UHGV virus genome: UHGV-0177318
Source of the DNA: a virus
Length of the DNA: 47,797 nt
Reading direction: 5' to 3' (one strand)
How positions within the stretch are numbered: position 1 is the first letter of the stretch; the number at the start of each line of letters is the position of its first letter. This document shows, piece after piece, positions 12,001 to 18,000 of this stretch. A program made the position numbers.

Positions 12001-15000
12001 GTTTATGCCCCAGTCAGCATCAGCCAGCAGGGGAGTGACGGGAGCATAAATCAGGCGAACGCCACGGGGACGGCGAAACAGCTGCAGGCGATTGTTCAGC
12101 AGACAATCACCGAGCGACTGAAAAAAGAAATGTCCGCAGGTGGCGTGCTTTATTCGAGGAGGACACAGTGACGGACACGTTTACCTGGCGCACGCGAAAA
12201 ACAGCGCAGGGTACTGAAACCGCCCGAACGCTGCAGGCCCAGTTCGGGGATGGCTACAAACAGATAGCGGGGATGGGGATCAACGACAAACAGGAAACGT
12301 GGAACCTGGACTGGACGGGCACCAGACAGGAGGCGGCTGCGCTGCGCGCTTTCCTGATGTCTCACGTTACTAAATCGTTCTGGTGGACCACTCCATGGGG
12401 TGAAAAAAAGCTGTTCAGAATGAAGGCCGATTCGTTCAGCGTTTCTTTCCCTACCGGGAAAAAAGCCACTGTGGCCTTCACTTTTGAACAGGCGTTCGCG
12501 CCCTGATTTTCTCGACAAACACTGAAAGCTGCCTCCGGGCGGCTTTTTTTATGGGGGGAGTATGAGTTTTACGGCAGACATCCAACAGCTTGAGCCCGGC
12601 AGCGTTATTCAGCTGATTGAGATCGACGGCACTGAATTCGGTATGGATCAGGTGCTGCGTTTTCATGCGCACAATATTCAGGAAGAGGGGTGGGCAGCCT
12701 TCGCCGCAGCAAATCTGCCCGCCATTATCTGGCAGGGAAACCAGTACGATCCCCATCCCTACGAACTGAAGGGGATGGAGTTATCGAGTACAGGTTCCCA
12801 GCCAACGCCCACGCTGTCCGTCGGGAACGTCGGAAACTATGTCACCGCGCTGTGTCTTGAATATGACGATATGGTCAGGGCTAAGGTCAAAATCCATACC
12901 ACGCTTTCGAAGTATCTCGATGCCGCCAACTGGAAAAACGGTAATCCGGGTGCCAGCCCGGCCGATGAGCGCGTACAGCTCTTTTACGTCAATGCTAAAA
13001 CCGCAGAGACGCGGGTAAAGGTTGATTTCGAGCTGTGTTCTCCTTTCGATATTCAGAGCCTGCAGCTGCCGACACGGCAGATTACGCCTGTCTGCACCTG
13101 GTGTATGCGGGGCTGGTACCGAAGCGGGACCGGATGCGATTACAACGGCACGAAATACTTTACCAAAGACGGTACGCCGACCGATGACCCGTCGAAAGAT
13201 GTTTGTGGCGGCCGCCGGCAGGATTGTCAGGATCGTCACGGCCCGGACGCGCCGCTGCCGTTCGGCGGTTTTCCGGCTGCAAACCTGCAGGGGAAATAAA
13301 AATGCGTGAAAAATTGCTGGATGCTATCCGTCAGCACGTCGCTGCTGAATACCCCAAAGAAGCCTGCGGCCTGATTGTTCAGTCAGGCCAGCAGCAAATC
13401 TATATTCCCTGCCGCAACATTGCCGATAAACCCGAGGAGACATTCACGCTCTCCCCGGAAGACCAGCTCGCTGCCCGCGCGCGCGGTGAGATCATCATGC
13501 TCATTCATTCACATCCGGATGTGGTTCGGCTGGTGCCCTCAGAGCTGGACCGGATCCAGTGCGACTGGTCGGGTATTGAGTGGGGGATCATGTCCTGGCC
13601 GGACGGGGACTTTTGTACGATCTCCCCGCGTGAAGACCGGGATTATGCCGGGCGGCAGTGGGTGCTGGGTTACGCGGACTGCTGGTCGTTAATCCGTGAA
13701 TATTATCTGCGCGAATACGGCATTGTTCTCGGGGACTATTCGGTACCTTACGAATGGTGGGAGAGCGGCAAGGAGCGGCTCTACGACGACAACTGGGAGC
13801 GCGAGGGATTCGTTGAGATTGCCGCCGGTGCAATGCAGCCCGGTGACATCATCATGATGAGTGTGCAGGCATCGGTGACTAATCACGCCGCGGTATATGT
13901 GGGTGACAACATCATTCTCCATCATCTGTTCGGGCATCTTTCTTCGCGAACGCCTTATGGAAAATATTATCGCGACAGAACGGTCCGGGTGGTCAGGCAT
14001 AAGGACCGAATGCATGGTTAAGACGCTTATTCTCGAAGGGAAAATGGCTAAAAAATTCGGTAAACGCGTTCAGTTTGATGTTGCCGATCTGCGCGAAATG
14101 CTCAGGGCCATGTGTTCACAGGTTCCCGGATTCAAAAAATATATGTCGGAAGCTCATATGAAGGGGATCCGTTTCGCCTTTTTTAACGGTGACAACAATA
14201 TCGGGCTGGAAGAGTTTGATATGACCCGCGGTGGAAGCGTGTACCGGATCGTGCCCGTTTATGAGGGGGCCAAAAATTCAGGCGTCCTGCAGATAGTTGT
14301 CGGTGCCGTTGCGCTGGTCGCTGCATTCTTTACCGCCGGTGCGAGTATGGCAGCCTGGGGGGCTGCGATGAGTGCAACAGCCATCAGCGCCACGTCAATT
14401 TTGACCGGGGTCGGGGTGTCAATGATGCTGGGTGGCGTTGTCCAGATGCTTACGCCCCAGCCATCCTTCGGCGCGGGTAAATCCTCCAGCACGGACAACA
14501 CGCCTAACTACGCCTTCGGGGCGCCGGTTAATACCGTCGCTATGGGGCATCCAGTCCCCCTGGCCTATGGTCTGATCGAGGCAGGGGGAGCGATAGTCAG
14601 CGCCGGTATGTACTCGAGCGATCAGCAATAGTGAAATGCAACCTAATAAGATGAACGTTACATTGCGATCACCCTTGGTTATCATGTCCAAAAAGATGCC
14701 AATCAAGGAGATGAAAGTGAAAAAATACGGTTTGGTCTTATTAGGTGTGCTGTTTATTTCAGGTTGTGCCCCCCAAAATCAGAACAACAATTTACAAAAA
14801 CAATACGCTGACTTAGCAAAGTGTGAAGATAACATCACGATGCCAAAACAAATGCCGCAAAGTAAAAAGGAGTTTGCGGAGTTTTTATCCAAGGCTGCGC
14901 TTAGTGCCTCGGCAGATCAGTTTGTTACCCAGAAGCGTATAGAAATTCTGCAATTAGTTGGGTGGGATAATTCAGTAGCTGATGCAATAACGACATGTGG

Positions 15001-18000
15001 AGCTACCAGAAAGAGCAAGCTAAAAGATATTGGGTCGAATGTGTTTGAAACGATGAAAGCAAACACTAAAGATACAGAAGAGCGTCGCGCTCTTGTTGAG
15101 GCTTATAGTTCGTGGGAGGCTTATGTAACCAGCCAAACTCCGCTCGCAAAACAGGACTTTGACTCTAAAGTTAGCTATTACAAAAACATGTAATAAAACG
15201 CCATCATTAATACTAACAATTAACCCAGCTCAGGCTGGGTTTTTTAATGGGGTAAAAATGCAACTTCTCCATGGTGAAACCATCATTCAGGGTGCTAAAG
15301 GGGGCGGTGGGAGCGCGCATACTCCGGTTGAGCAACCTGACGATTTGCTGTCGGTCGCAAAATTAAAAATGCTCATTGCCGTTTCTGAGGGGGAAATACA
15401 GGGCGACCTGACCGCACAGAACATTTTTCTCAACGATACGCCGCTTGCAAACGACAGCGGGGAATACAACTTCAGCGGCGTGAAATGGGAATTCCGGAAG
15501 GGCACACAGGACCAGACCTATATTGCCGGGATGCCCCAGGTCGATAACGAGCTGGCGGTTGGCACAACTGTCACCACCACCGCGCCATGGACGCGCCAGT
15601 TTACCAACCTTTCCCTGGATGCCATCCGCATCAAGCTCAGCCTTCCGGTCCAGTATCTCTATAAAGATAACGGCGATATGGTGGGCACGGTCACCGAGTA
15701 TGCGATCGATTTATCAACGGATGGCGGCGCCTGGAAAACGGTTGTAAACGGCAAGTTTGACGGAAAGACCACGACGGAATATCAGCGTGACCACCGTATT
15801 GATCTGCCAAAATCCACGTCCGGCTGGTCTGTCAGGGTCAGGCGTATTACGGCTGATGCCAGCGGATCAAATTCGAAACTGGTTAACGCCTTCAAGGTGT
15901 TTTCGTATGCGGAAGTCATCGACAGCAAGCTTCGTTATCCTTTAACCGCGCTCCTGTATGTCGAAGTGGACAGCAGCCAGTTCAACGGCAGCGCGCCGAA
16001 AGTGACCTGTAAGATAAAAGGCAAGCTGATTAAGGTTCCGGATAATTACGATCCGATAACCCGAACCTATTCTGGTTCATGGTCCGGCGGGTTCAAAATG
16101 GCCTGGTCCAATAACCCTGCCTGGATCTTTTACGATCTGGTTCTGGATGAAATTTACGGCATGGGCACGCGCGTGGATGCGTACATGGTGGATAAGTGGG
16201 CGCTGTATTCAATTGCACAGTATTGCGACGAAATGGTTTCCGACGGCGCCGGTGGTACCGAACCGCGTTTCACCTGCAACGTTTTCATTCAGAGCCAGGA
16301 GGACGCCTGGCAGGTACTTAACGATCTCGCCGCGGTATTTCGTGGAATAACGTTCTGGGGCAACGATCAGATTTATGTCCAGGCAGACGTCCCGCAGGAC
16401 GATGTTGACTGGGTTTATAACGCCTCAAACGTTATCGATGGGCTGTTTACTTATGCGGGCGGCTCATACAAGAATCGCTACAGCTCCTGCCTCGTGTCCT
16501 GGTCCGATCCGCAGAACCATTACAGCGATACCGTTGAGGGAGTCTACGATTCAGAGCTTGTAGAGCGTTACGACGTCAGGCAAACGTCCCTGACCGCAAT
16601 CGGCTGCACCTCGCAAAGTGAAGCGCACCGGCGCGGTCGCTGGGTATTACTCTCCAATGCCAAAGACGGGACCGTATCGTTTGGGGTGGGGCTGGACGGC
16701 TATATTCCTCTGCCCGCTGAAATTATCGGTGTCGCCGATCCTTTCCGTTCCGGAAAGGAGAACGGGGGCCGCATAGTGGCGGTCAATGGCCGCCAGATTA
16801 CGCTGGATCGAGAAATAGATTACGCAGCGAAAGACCGGCTGGTGGTTAACCTGCCCGACGGAAAAGCCCAGACGCGGACAATCAGCGCGGTGAGCGCCGA
16901 TAAAATAACGGTGACGGTGGCTACGGCCTTCAGTCAGGCACCTGCCGCTGGTGCTGTCTGGGCGATAGACAGTGATAACCTCGCGATACAGTACTTCCGG
17001 GTCACTTCAATCGCGGCCAACGATGACAGCACAGGCGGTTTCACAATTACGGCCGTTCAGCACGATCCAAACAAATACCGTTACATCGATGACGGCGTTC
17101 GGATCGAGTCGCCCCCGATCACCGTCACGCCGATAAGCGTCCTGTCTGCGCCGAAGAATATCGTGGTGACTGAGAGCGATCATGTGTCTCAGGGTCTGAC
17201 GGTAGCAAGCCTTGACGTGTCATGGGACAAGGTTGAGGGCGCAATCCGGTACGTTGCCCAGTGGCGCAAGGATAACGGGGACTGGATCAACGTTCCGGTT
17301 ACCAGCGCGCAGGGGTTCTCGGTTCAGGGCATTTATTCAGGCAGCTATGATGTGCGCGTCCGGGCGCTGAATGCGCAGGATACGTCGTCACCATGGGGAT
17401 ACGCCGAAACAACGTACCTTTCCGGAAAAACGGGAAAACCGGGTACCCCGCTCAACTTCCTGGCGACCGAAGATGTGGTCTGGCATATCGATCTGACCTG
17501 GAAATTTCCGGATGGCTCAGGCGACACGGCCTATACAGAGATTCAGCGCGCCACAACCTCTGACTACGCCAATCCTGAACTGCTGGTCCTGGTGCCGTAC
17601 CCGGCTGCAGATTATCAGCATGGCCCCATGCCTGCTGGCGTTCGCCAGTGGTACCGCGCGCGCCTGATTGACCGTATCGGTAATGTCGGTGACTGGACCG
17701 ACTGGGTCATGGGCACGTCCTCGATAGATGTCAGCGAAATAACCAATGACATTCTGGAGGACATGAAAGATTCCGACACGTTCAAAGACCTGATCGAGAA
17801 CGCGGTGGACAGCAATGAAAAAGTTGCAGGCATGGCGGATGACATCAAAAAGCATGCCGACGAGCTGGAGCAGCAGGCGAAAGACATCCAGGAGAACGCT
17901 GACGGGCTGGCGCAGGCCGAAGTGAAGATAGACGAGATTTCAGTGTCGATGGACGGCATGACGGGAGGTGTGAAGAACTCGGCAATTGCGATAATCCAGG

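What the first reader, a model, noticed from the sequence alone, without database searches (positions are those of the whole stretch)
14632..15257. Self-contained lipoprotein moron inserted between tail genes I and J
Between I and J, which are adjacent in lambda, sits an AT-rich 160-codon gene with a classic lipoprotein signal peptide (LFISGC), a candidate promoter (TTACAT-N16-TATCAT), a strong RBS and a perfect intrinsic terminator immediately before J. A lipoprotein expressed from the lysogen, independent of the late operon, is a typical exclusion or host-fitness factor, and J must be transcribed through its terminator.
Basis: partly seen in the sequence, partly recalled or inferred. Interest (0 to 1): 0.55.

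Follow-up and report, generated by a model that had tools for sequence, protein, structure and literature searches.

The report
Known phi80 morF lipoprotein moron
This is the already annotated morF add-on gene of phi80-type phages: an AT-rich gene with its own promoter, between tail genes I and J, encoding a predicted outer-membrane lipoprotein whose function has not been tested.

Summary
Window 14632-15257 carries an AT-rich gene (GTG 14717 or ATG 14711 to 15193; 41% G+C against 55% in I and J). It has a lipobox (FISG|C), an AAGGAG ribosome site, a promoter-like TTACAT-N16-TATCAT and a hairpin with a T-run just before J.

It is not new. It is 95% identical to phi80 MorF, which GenBank FN582354.1 annotates as a moron lipoprotein precursor with this same -35, -10, start site and terminator.

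Comparison confirms an insertion. Phages LLS and mEp213 have 93-96% identical tails but only 10 nt in place of window 14632-15211. Homologues sit in at least five other prophage slots. The promoter hexamers and 5' leader stay 67-77% identical where synonymous sites are saturated. dN/dS is 0.03-0.12.

One correction: the hairpin before J is resident, not brought by the moron. It occurs at the same place in morF-less relatives and in lambda, with compensatory stem changes.

Function is unknown. There was no Pfam, PADLOC, PDB-sequence or informative fold match. My best guess is envelope-level lysogenic conversion, most likely exclusion of other phages (about 0.35). Interest is low.

The parts
14014..14631 (+). 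Tail assembly gene I, the left neighbour. Homology with morF-less phages ends at its stop codon.
   Evidence: PF06805 and PHROG 32. It is 98-99% identical in protein to phi80 gp20/I.
14632..15211 (+). Inserted morF segment (about 580 nt). LLS and mEp213 have 10 nt here instead. G+C is 0.40.
   Evidence: alignment to the empty sites; G+C; composition profile.
14657..14685 (+). Promoter-like site. The -35 is (G)TTACAT at 14657/14658-14663 and the -10 is TATCAT at 14680-14685. The start site is predicted near 14692 by transfer from the phi80 record.
   Evidence: the only match in the window. One search shows the same bases annotated as -35, -10 and start site in FN582354.1, and one search shows that sequence. 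The hexamers are conserved in homologues sitting in the H-M slot. Activity was not measured.
14705..14710 (+). Shine-Dalgarno sequence AAGGAG, 6 nt upstream of GTG 14717.
   Evidence: It is conserved as AGGGG or AAGGAG in all aligned homologues.
14717..15193 (+). morF coding sequence (158 aa from GTG; the alternative ATG 14711 gives 160 aa). Signal peptide 14717-14764, lipid-modified Cys codon 14765-14767, predicted mature protein about 142 aa and all-helical.
   Evidence: PHROG 8179, E = 1.5e-74, full length. 95% identical to phi80 MorF. Lipobox. dN/dS 0.03-0.12. AlphaFold2 mean pLDDT 82.6 with five helices.
15222..15245 (+). Resident I-J hairpin (AACCCAGC-UCAG-GCUGGGUU) plus T-run. It would end morF transcripts in a lysogen and has to be read through in late transcription.
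   Evidence: An orthologous hairpin with compensatory stem changes occurs in morF-less phages, in other lambdoid prophages and in lambda.
15258..18722 (+). Central tail fibre / tip attachment gene J, the right neighbour.
   Evidence: PF24801, PF13550, PF09327 and PHROG 31. Its distal roughly 55 residues are only 54% identical to phi80 J.
40700..41413 (+). Q-type late antiterminator. It is context: it explains how late transcription can pass hairpins inside the tail operon.
   Evidence: PF06323, E = 6.5e-40. The read-through itself is established lambda biology and was not tested here.

Best explanation
The feature is the morF moron of phi80-type lambdoid phages. An AT-rich segment of about 580 nt (window 14632-15211) was inserted between the stop codon of tail gene I and a hairpin that already stood in front of J.

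The segment carries a sigma-70-type promoter (TTACAT-N16-TATCAT), a leader with a strong ribosome site, and a 158-aa precursor.

Inferred steps:
- In a lysogen the promoter would be transcribed independently of the repressed late operon, and transcription would stop at the resident I-J hairpin, so J stays silent.
- In lytic growth, Q-modified polymerase coming from the late promoter would read through both morF and the hairpin. MorF would then also be made late.
- The precursor would be exported, lipid-modified at Cys17 and cleaved by signal peptidase II. [quoted passage not shown]
- There, an all-helical domain of about 120 residues would hang in the periplasm on a Gln/Asn-rich tether of about 15-20 residues. 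Two further invariant cysteines could form a disulfide.

Most likely role (inference only): lysogenic conversion of the cell envelope, most probably exclusion of other phages at or after the outer-membrane step.

My probabilities: identity and architecture about 0.9; outer-membrane lipoprotein about 0.8; exclusion function about 0.35.
For: **Identity**
- 95% protein identity to phi80 MorF, in the same position.
- Full-length match to PHROG 8179.

**Insertion**
- LLS, mEp213 and mEp043 have 93-96% identical tail regions but lack the segment.

**Mobility**
- Homologues lie between H and M, between T and H, between M and L, upstream of I, and in early or immunity regions.
- There are none on plasmids.

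**Real gene**
- dN/dS is 0.03-0.12.
- 40 columns are invariant across 18 sequences.

**Promoter**
- GTTACA and TGGTTAT(C/T)AT are conserved, with a 17-18 nt spacer of variable sequence, in copies sitting in a different slot.
- The stretch from -35 to the start codon is 67-77% identical, against 24-44% further upstream, while synonymous sites are saturated.
- One-base indels break the upstream reading frame in the H-M copies, so this conservation is non-coding.

**Lipoprotein**
- A lipobox occurs in 44 of 45 clusters, and residue +2 is A, S or T, never D.
- Cys36 and Cys94 are invariant.
- The model is helical with a disordered N-terminus.

**Termination and read-through**
- Hairpin and Q gene.

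**Accessory neighbourhoods**
- Homologues sit next to a SNIPE/T5orf172 gene, anti-repressor-type genes and toxin-antitoxin pairs.
Against: - There are no expression data. The promoter match alone is at chance level.
- No functional homology of any kind was found: no Pfam, PADLOC or NCBIfam hit above cut-off, no PDB sequence hit, and only generic helical-bundle fold matches.
- MorF does not track the phage's own receptor-binding tip. It occurs with two different J tips, and the window's tip type also occurs in phages without it.
- The slot after J holds another lipoprotein that does track the tip: Cor in phi80, and a PHROG 25729 protein here. So masking of the phage's own receptor is probably not MorF's job.
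- The laboratory phi80 allele has a stop nine codons early, so loss of the conserved C-terminus is at least tolerated in culture.
- The gene is rare: 3 of 5426 complete E. coli genomes.
Confidence: 0.8

Rival explanations
1. Host-fitness or virulence factor rather than phage exclusion. On this reading MorF is a prophage-expressed outer-membrane lipoprotein that changes envelope properties, for example serum or complement resistance, stress tolerance or adhesion. That is how lambda Bor works.
For: - The architecture matches a lysogenic-conversion lipoprotein: own promoter, AT-rich, lipobox.
- It is independent of the phage's receptor-binding tip.
- It is spread among gut and clinical Enterobacteriaceae prophages: Citrobacter, Enterobacter, Salmonella, Kluyvera.
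Against: - There is no similarity to Bor/Iss or any known virulence lipoprotein.
- It is very rare in E. coli.
- The neighbouring cargo genes are phage-conflict genes rather than virulence genes.
- No phenotype data exist.
Confidence: 0.3
2. Periplasmic immunity protein. On this reading MorF binds and neutralises a toxin that acts in the periplasm, such as a colicin, a pesticin-like muramidase or a type VI amidase effector. The lysogen would be protected against competitors.
For: - It is a small, helical, probably disulfide-bonded domain tethered in the periplasm.
- It is a cargo gene that is always mobile.
Against: - No cognate toxin gene is nearby in any locus examined.
- There is no sequence or fold match to known immunity proteins.
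Confidence: 0.1
3. Tail structural or assembly protein that belongs to the tail operon.
For: In most loci it lies inside the tail gene cluster and is always co-oriented with it.
Against: - It is absent from phages with 93-96% identical tails.
- It occupies five different junctions of the tail operon and also sits in early regions.
- A lipoprotein signal peptide would export it away from cytoplasmic tail assembly.
- Its composition is foreign to its neighbours.
Confidence: 0.03
4. The promoter is not functional. On this reading morF is made only as part of the late transcript, and it acts during lysis or release, for example by protecting progeny from re-adsorption to debris.
For: - The promoter match is only 9 of 12 and is at chance frequency.
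- The co-orientation with late genes guarantees late expression.
- T5 Llp is a precedent for a lipoprotein that protects progeny (general knowledge; PMC9586334 describes Llp).
Against: - The hexamers and spacer length are conserved across copies whose synonymous sites are saturated and which sit in a different slot.
- Some family members lie outside late operons.
Confidence: 0.1

Closest known systems
phi80 MorF (GenBank FN582354.1 CBH95072.1 'MorF lipoprotein precursor'; JX871397.1 PHI80_20 'morF'); PHROG 8179
   Same: - 95% protein identity.
- The same slot between I (gp20) and J (gp21).
- The same -35, -10, ribosome site, lipobox and downstream hairpin.
   Different: - The window's allele is full length. 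Both phi80 records have a stop nine codons before the family's conserved end...DFD*KVSYYKNM.
- Nucleotide identity is about 92%, with synonymous divergence dS about 0.49.
- The host phage differs in its J tip and lacks cor.
HK97 gene 15 moron (the original 'moron'; a superinfection exclusion protein)
   Same: - An extra gene inside a lambdoid tail operon, with its own promoter and deviant composition.
- One MorF-family member sits in the same T-H slot as HK97 gene 15 (the slot is described in PMC3594210).
   Different: - According to PMC3594210, gp15 is a small inner-membrane protein, whereas MorF is a predicted outer-membrane lipoprotein.
- Sequence similarity to gp15 was not compared directly here.
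- MorF's function is untested.
Cor (phi80, N15, HK022) and T5 Llp: lipoproteins that inactivate FhuA
   Same: - Phage-encoded lipoproteins with a lipobox, expected to be anchored in the outer membrane.
- phi80 carries both Cor and MorF.
   Different: - Cor is 77 aa and unrelated in sequence, and it gives no hit in the window.
- The MorF-family profile found no PDB chain at E <= 1, and no Pfam family matched.
- MorF is twice the size and helical.
- MorF does not co-vary with the J tip.
Lambda Bor / Iss (PF06291), a serum-resistance lipoprotein
   Same: Both are prophage-expressed outer-membrane lipoprotein morons of lambdoid phages.
   Different: - No Pfam hit.
- Different size and predicted fold.
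- Different genome position.
Ltp of Streptococcus phage TP-J34, a helical exclusion lipoprotein that targets the tape measure protein
   Same: This is a functional analogy only, recalled from memory: a lipid-anchored, all-helical domain of about 140 aa encoded by a temperate siphophage.
   Different: - No hit to any Pfam family, which would include an Ltp family if Pfam holds one, and no PDB sequence hit.
- It did not appear among the fold matches.
- Ltp comes from a Gram-positive host.

Membership tests
phi80 MorF / PHROG 8179 | Full-length sequence match to the family profile and to phi80 MorF | tested here: met
   PHROG 8179 at E = 1.5e-74, covering profile positions 1-159 of 159. 95% identity over 158 aa to phi80.
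phi80 MorF / PHROG 8179 | Same genomic position (between I/gp20 and J/gp21) with the annotated promoter and hairpin | tested here: met
   The annotated -35 TTACAT, the -10 GGTTATCAT and the hairpin are all present in the window.
Moron (Hendrix/Juhala sense) | An extra gene between two genes that are adjacent in related phages | tested here: met
   LLS and mEp213 have 10 nt where the window has 14632-15211. In lambda, I and J are adjacent.
Moron (Hendrix/Juhala sense) | Nucleotide composition different from the neighbours | tested here: met
   G+C 0.40 against 0.55 and 0.55. GC3 0.40 against 0.62 and 0.65.
Moron (Hendrix/Juhala sense) | Own promoter | tested here: inconclusive
   A 9-of-12 consensus match that is at chance frequency on its own. 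However, the hexamers and spacer length are conserved across slots and across saturated divergence. No activity data exist.
Moron (Hendrix/Juhala sense) | Own terminator | tested here: inconclusive
   A good hairpin with a T-run follows the gene. At this site it lies outside the indel, and it is shared with morF-less phages and lambda. Copies in the H-M slot do carry hairpins of their own.
Moron (Hendrix/Juhala sense) | Expressed from the repressed prophage | not testable with these tools
   This needs RNA-seq or 5'-end mapping of a lysogen. No paper in the searchable library reports it.
Bacterial lipoprotein (Lgt / LspA / Lnt pathway) | Lipobox [LVI][ASTVI][GAS]C after a basic n-region and a hydrophobic h-region, near the N-terminus | tested here: met
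   MKKYGLVLLGVLFISG|C. The pattern is found in 44 of 45 homologue clusters, and the Cys is invariant.
Bacterial lipoprotein (Lgt / LspA / Lnt pathway) | Actual acylation and cleavage by signal peptidase II; outer-membrane sorting | not testable with these tools
   Residue +2 is Ala, Ser or Thr and never Asp. By the E. coli '+2 rule' (established knowledge) this predicts outer-membrane sorting. That is an inference only.
Cor / Llp receptor-blocking lipoproteins | Sequence or fold relationship to Cor or Llp | tested here: not met
   phi80 Cor gives no tblastn hit in the window. The family profile finds no PDB chain at E <= 1. Fold matches are generic helical bundles only.
Bor/Iss (PF06291) | Match to the Pfam family | tested here: not met
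   No Pfam family at E <= 0.1.
Known anti-phage defence proteins (PADLOC-DB 2.0) | Match to any defence-system model | tested here: not met
   No families matched.
Lambdoid tail structural or assembly proteins | Conserved presence and position in related tail operons | tested here: not met
   It is absent from near-identical tails. Its position varies between loci.

The most novel reading that the evidence does not exclude
The MorF family may be a so far unrecognised class of periplasm-facing outer-membrane lipoproteins that block siphophage genome entry after adsorption, for example by interfering with passage of the tail tip or tape measure protein through the periplasm. The block would not depend on which receptor the incoming phage uses. 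Residence in tail operons would give two modes of expression: constitutive in lysogens, and a burst late in infection. The evidence does not exclude this, but nothing here supports it directly.
Probability: 0.12. Interest if true: 0.55.

Novelty: already known. Interest (0 to 1): 0.2.

Why it matters
As a finding it matters little. The gene, its promoter, its lipoprotein signal and the downstream hairpin are already annotated in the phi80 GenBank record, and the window holds a 95%-identical allele.

The follow-up does have some modest value:
- **It defines the family.** MorF belongs to a small, exclusively prophage-borne family of 27 clusters at 50% identity among 1.84 billion representative proteins. 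The family hops between at least six slots of lambdoid genomes and takes its promoter along. That makes it a clean, uncharacterised candidate for envelope-level lysogenic conversion.
- **It warns about the laboratory allele.** The laboratory phi80 allele is truncated, so functional tests should use a full-length allele such as this one.
- **It reassigns the 'terminator' before J.** That hairpin is a conserved resident element of lambdoid tail operons, lambda included, and it may be worth a look in its own right.

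Tried and rejected
**Searches that gave nothing useful on function**
- Pfam found no family and PADLOC found none.
- NCBIfam gave only far sub-threshold hits: phasin at 22 bits against a cut-off of 99.7, and a lipoprotein signal-peptide match.
- A PDB sequence search with the family profile found nothing at E <= 1.
- Foldseek found nothing better than E = 0.1 against the PDB or against viral structures.
- The AlphaFold-database fold library was not available.
- Rfam showed no family near its threshold in 14300-15500.
- There are no plasmid copies.

**Literature**
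- Searches for morF with phi80, and related term sets, found no open paper on MorF.
- The phi80/Lula genome paper (PMC3510586) is not held.
- Papers on tail-assembly interference, lysogen transcriptomics and RNA-guided flagellar remodelling do not mention it.

**Ideas considered and rejected**
- *N-terminal extension from ATG 14636 or 14684.* One-base indels break that frame in the H-M-slot homologues while the DNA stays conserved, so the region is non-coding.
- *Structural tail protein.* Rejected because of the empty sites and the variable slots.
- *o-spanin.* It is not in the lysis cassette (a lysozyme gene lies at 43289-43828), and at about 142 aa the predicted mature protein is much larger than the o-spanins I recall.
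- *Blocker of the phage's own receptor.* MorF does not co-vary with the J tip, whereas the lipoprotein in the cor slot does.

Full report
**1. What is in the sequence**

The window is a phi80-like lambdoid phage genome. Its left 18 kb is about 91% identical to phi80. It carries a Q antiterminator, a lysozyme gene and Nu1 near its right end.

Around the finding the gene order is H (9034-12171), M, L, K (13302-14021), I (14014-14631), the ORF in question, then J (15258-18722). The assignments rest on Pfam and PHROG hits.

The frame of the ORF is open from 14636 to 15193.
- AAGGAG at 14705-14710 abuts ATG 14711 and lies 6 nt before GTG 14717.
- The PHROG profile and most database homologues begin at the MKK encoded from 14717.
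- I therefore take GTG 14717 as the start (158 aa).

All the other listed features are there.
- The segment is AT-rich: G+C 0.40 against 0.55 in both neighbours, and GC3 0.40 against 0.62 and 0.65.
- The promoter-like site (G)TTACAT-N16/17-TATCAT lies at 14657-14685.
- The hairpin AACCCAGC-TCAG-GCTGGGTT plus T-run lies at 15222-15245, with a predicted energy of -15.6 kcal/mol and z = -3.1.

**2. It is already known**

The 781 nt around the gene match phage phi80 at 92-93% and phages Flotzy and Eeyore at 93%. The protein is 95% identical to phi80 MorF.

GenBank FN582354.1 annotates phi80 MorF as 'MorF lipoprotein precursor; moron gene product'. That record lists a -35 signal, a -10 signal, a transcription start site, a signal-peptidase-II signal peptide, the acylated cysteine and a rho-independent terminator. 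JX871397.1 calls the gene morF, 'hypothetical protein'.

The protein matches PHROG 8179 (unknown function) over its full length at E = 1.5e-74.

No paper in the searchable library discusses MorF, and the phi80 genome paper is not held. I therefore cannot say whether any experiment exists. The records themselves give only predictions.

**3. Evidence that it is an inserted, mobile unit**

*Empty sites.* Phages LLS, mEp213 and mEp043 share the tail region at 93-96% nucleotide identity, but they match only the last 82 nt of I in the query. Aligning the junctions shows that homology stops at the I stop codon and resumes at ACTAAC..TTAA just before the hairpin. Window 14632-15211 (about 580 nt) is replaced there by 10 nt.

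*Other slots.* A search of 5.8 billion proteins found 45 clusters, all in Enterobacteriaceae and all unnamed.
- The copies at 91% identity or more (Escherichia, Leclercia, Enterobacter wuhouensis, Pseudocitrobacter) lie between I and J.
- The copies at 45-64% identity (Citrobacter, Kluyvera, Atlantibacter, Pseudescherichia) lie between the tape measure gene H and M. Their flanking tail proteins are only 33-48% identical to the window's.
- A profile search of 1.84 billion representative proteins found just 27 clusters. Those examined are nearly all lipoproteins of about 155-172 aa sharing the Cys pattern and the C-terminal motif KALIxAYSxWExY...YYKNM.
- These more distant members sit between T and H, between M and L, upstream of I, next to Ant/Kil/Gam early genes, and in an immunity and toxin-antitoxin region.
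- There are no plasmid copies.
- Only 3 of 5426 complete E. coli genomes carry it, two of them laboratory strains.

*Real gene.* Within the phi80-like group dN/dS is 0.03-0.12.

*The promoter travels with the gene.*
- Between the I-J copies and the H-M copies, synonymous sites are saturated (pS 0.70-0.85).
- Sequence upstream of the -35 is unrelated: 24-44% identity in Citrobacter, Atlantibacter, Pseudescherichia and Kluyvera.
- Yet the 63 nt from the -35 to the start codon are 67-77% identical in those four.
- The conserved blocks are GGTTACA, then a 17-18 nt spacer of variable sequence, then CCCYTGGTTAT(C/T)AT, then the ribosome site.
- One-base indels in the H-M copies break the upstream reading frame, so this conservation is non-coding.
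- The consensus match alone is at chance frequency. The conservation is the real evidence for a promoter.
- The most distant H-M copy (L008) has diverged here and shows a different candidate site.

**4. The hairpin before J is resident, not part of the insert**

The indel ends upstream of the hairpin. A hairpin of the same design occurs in many lambdoid I-J junctions. The design is an 8-bp stem with two A-T pairs at the base, a 4-nt loop, a T-run, then ATGG and J's start codon about 10-15 nt further on (lambda differs in this tail). It occurs in:
- morF-less LLS and mEp213;
- prophages whose I-J spacer is otherwise empty (L003, L008, L012, L013);
- prophages with unrelated inserts between I and J (L006, L011), and L020, whose hairpin has a longer loop;
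- lambda itself, as AAACCGCC-TGCG-GGCGGTTT starting 42 nt before J's ATG.

Across 11 distinct sequences, 85 of 88 stem positions pair in register, against at most 52 of 88 when the partner strand is shifted. Stem pairs 3-7 each use two to four different Watson-Crick or wobble pair types. Between the window and LLS, four of the eight pairs differ on both sides and still pair.

It follows that morF was inserted between the I stop codon and a pre-existing, structurally conserved hairpin. That hairpin would serve as its terminator.

It is the usual situation for a Q-antiterminated late operon (established lambda biology; Q gene at 40700-41413). The phi80 records annotate further terminator-like hairpins inside the tail operon.

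Copies in the H-M slot do bring hairpins of their own, each with a different sequence. In the window, H and M overlap, so there is no resident hairpin in that slot.

**5. The protein**

- The precursor begins MKKYGLVLLGVLFISG|CAPQ.
- A lipobox is present in 44 of 45 clusters; the exception has an aberrant N-terminus. Residue +2 is always A, S or T. By the E. coli +2 rule this predicts sorting to the outer membrane, which is an inference.
- Cys17, Cys36 and Cys94 are invariant. This is consistent with one disulfide in an exported domain, but it was not verified.
- AlphaFold2 (mean pLDDT 82.6, pTM 0.73) predicts a disordered tether over residues 1-21, followed by five helices.
- Fold searches returned only generic helical bundles. 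Sequence libraries returned nothing usable.
- The family has no detectable relative of known function.

**6. How it most likely works**

*Shown by sequence comparison:*
- it is an inserted, mobile, purifying-selected gene;
- it has a conserved promoter-like leader;
- it has a conserved lipoprotein signal.

*Inferred:*
- constitutive transcription in the lysogen from its own promoter, ending at the I-J hairpin;
- extra expression late in infection by read-through;
- export, acylation and outer-membrane anchoring with the helical domain in the periplasm.

*Function (speculative).* Phage lipoproteins with known functions include Cor and Llp (receptor blocking), Bor (serum resistance) and the o-spanins.
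- MorF is not in the lysis cassette.
- It is not related to Cor, Llp or Bor.
- It does not track the phage's receptor-binding tip. It occurs with the phi80 tip and with a tip only 54% identical over the last roughly 55 residues. The window's tip type also occurs in morF-less phages.
- By contrast, the lipoprotein in the slot after J does change with the tip: Cor in phi80, and a PHROG 25729 lipoprotein on the minus strand at 19627-19989 here and in Flotzy.
- Masking of the phage's own receptor is therefore probably not MorF's task.
- Its neighbours in other loci are phage-conflict cargo: a SNIPE/T5orf172 gene, anti-repressor-type genes and toxin-antitoxin pairs.

I therefore rank the possible functions as follows. 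The last item is about timing of expression and overlaps the others.

| Reading | Probability |
|---|---|
| Exclusion of other phages at or after the outer-membrane step | about 0.35 |
| Host-fitness envelope factor | about 0.3 |
| Immunity to periplasm-acting toxins | about 0.1 |
| Structural or assembly role | about 0.03 |
| Late-only role, with a non-functional promoter | about 0.1 |

**7. Verdict**

The element is already annotated in phi80, so its novelty is 'already known' and its interest is low. The family remains functionally uncharacterised. That, together with the resident I-J hairpin, is the only part worth further work.

Noticed in passing
window 15222-15245; also L014 1301-1320, L013 9047-9066, L012 9447-9466, L008 9339-9358, L006 10269-10288, L011 11455-11474, L027 764-783 (lambda NC_001416 about 15463-15482): A terminator-like hairpin plus T-run sits directly upstream of J and is conserved in structure across lambdoid tail operons, including lambda. 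There are many compensatory stem changes: 85 of 88 positions pair in register. Its role is not known to me; candidates are a partial terminator setting J dosage, an RNA stabiliser, or a translational element.
   Followed up: partly
L006 9835-10251; L011 10811-11425; L020 5000-5498: The spacer between I and the hairpin is a recurrent insertion slot. Other prophages carry unrelated genes there: a 121/138-aa ORF, a 204-aa protein with a signal peptide, and a 90-aa ORF plus a reverse 83-aa ORF.
   Followed up: partly
L001 2670-3149 and L002 6168-6647 (phi80 morF): Both phi80 records have a stop codon nine codons before the family's conserved C-terminus (...QDFD*KVSYYKNM). The window and all other homologues are full length. 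The laboratory phi80 allele may be defective.
   Followed up: partly
window 19627-19989 (- strand): A second predicted lipoprotein (MKRLFAVALLLAAG|C; 120 aa; PHROG 25729, unknown function) lies on the opposite strand in the slot where phi80 has cor. The window has no cor. The same-sized minus-strand ORF is annotated in Flotzy, which shares the window's J tip, and the nucleotide matches of mEp213, mEp043 and LLS extend across this region. It is a candidate receptor-matched exclusion factor.
   Followed up: partly
window 18560-18722 (J residues about 1100-1154) and 17960-18260 (J residues about 901-1000): J is 97-100% identical to phi80 J over its first 800 residues. It drops to 49% in residues 901-1000 and to 54% in the distal tip, where it is identical to Flotzy. 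This is a mosaic tail tip, so the receptor may differ from phi80's FhuA.
   Followed up: partly
L003-L007 5544-7157 (- strand): In Citrobacter-type prophages the MorF homologue between H and M is followed by a convergent 537-aa gene with SNIPE, T5orf172 and MUG113 domains. This suggests that the H-M junction is a slot for defence cargo.
   Followed up: no
window 44497-46031: Adjacent genes for a eukaryotic-type Ser/Thr protein kinase (PF00069) and a PP2C phosphatase (PF13672) lie between the lysis region and Nu1.
   Followed up: no
window 21619-23363: A UmuD-like gene (PHROG 811) and a DNA polymerase gene (PHROG 1268, 422 aa) lie downstream of the side tail fibre gene. Together they look like a phage-borne translesion polymerase pair.
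   Followed up: no
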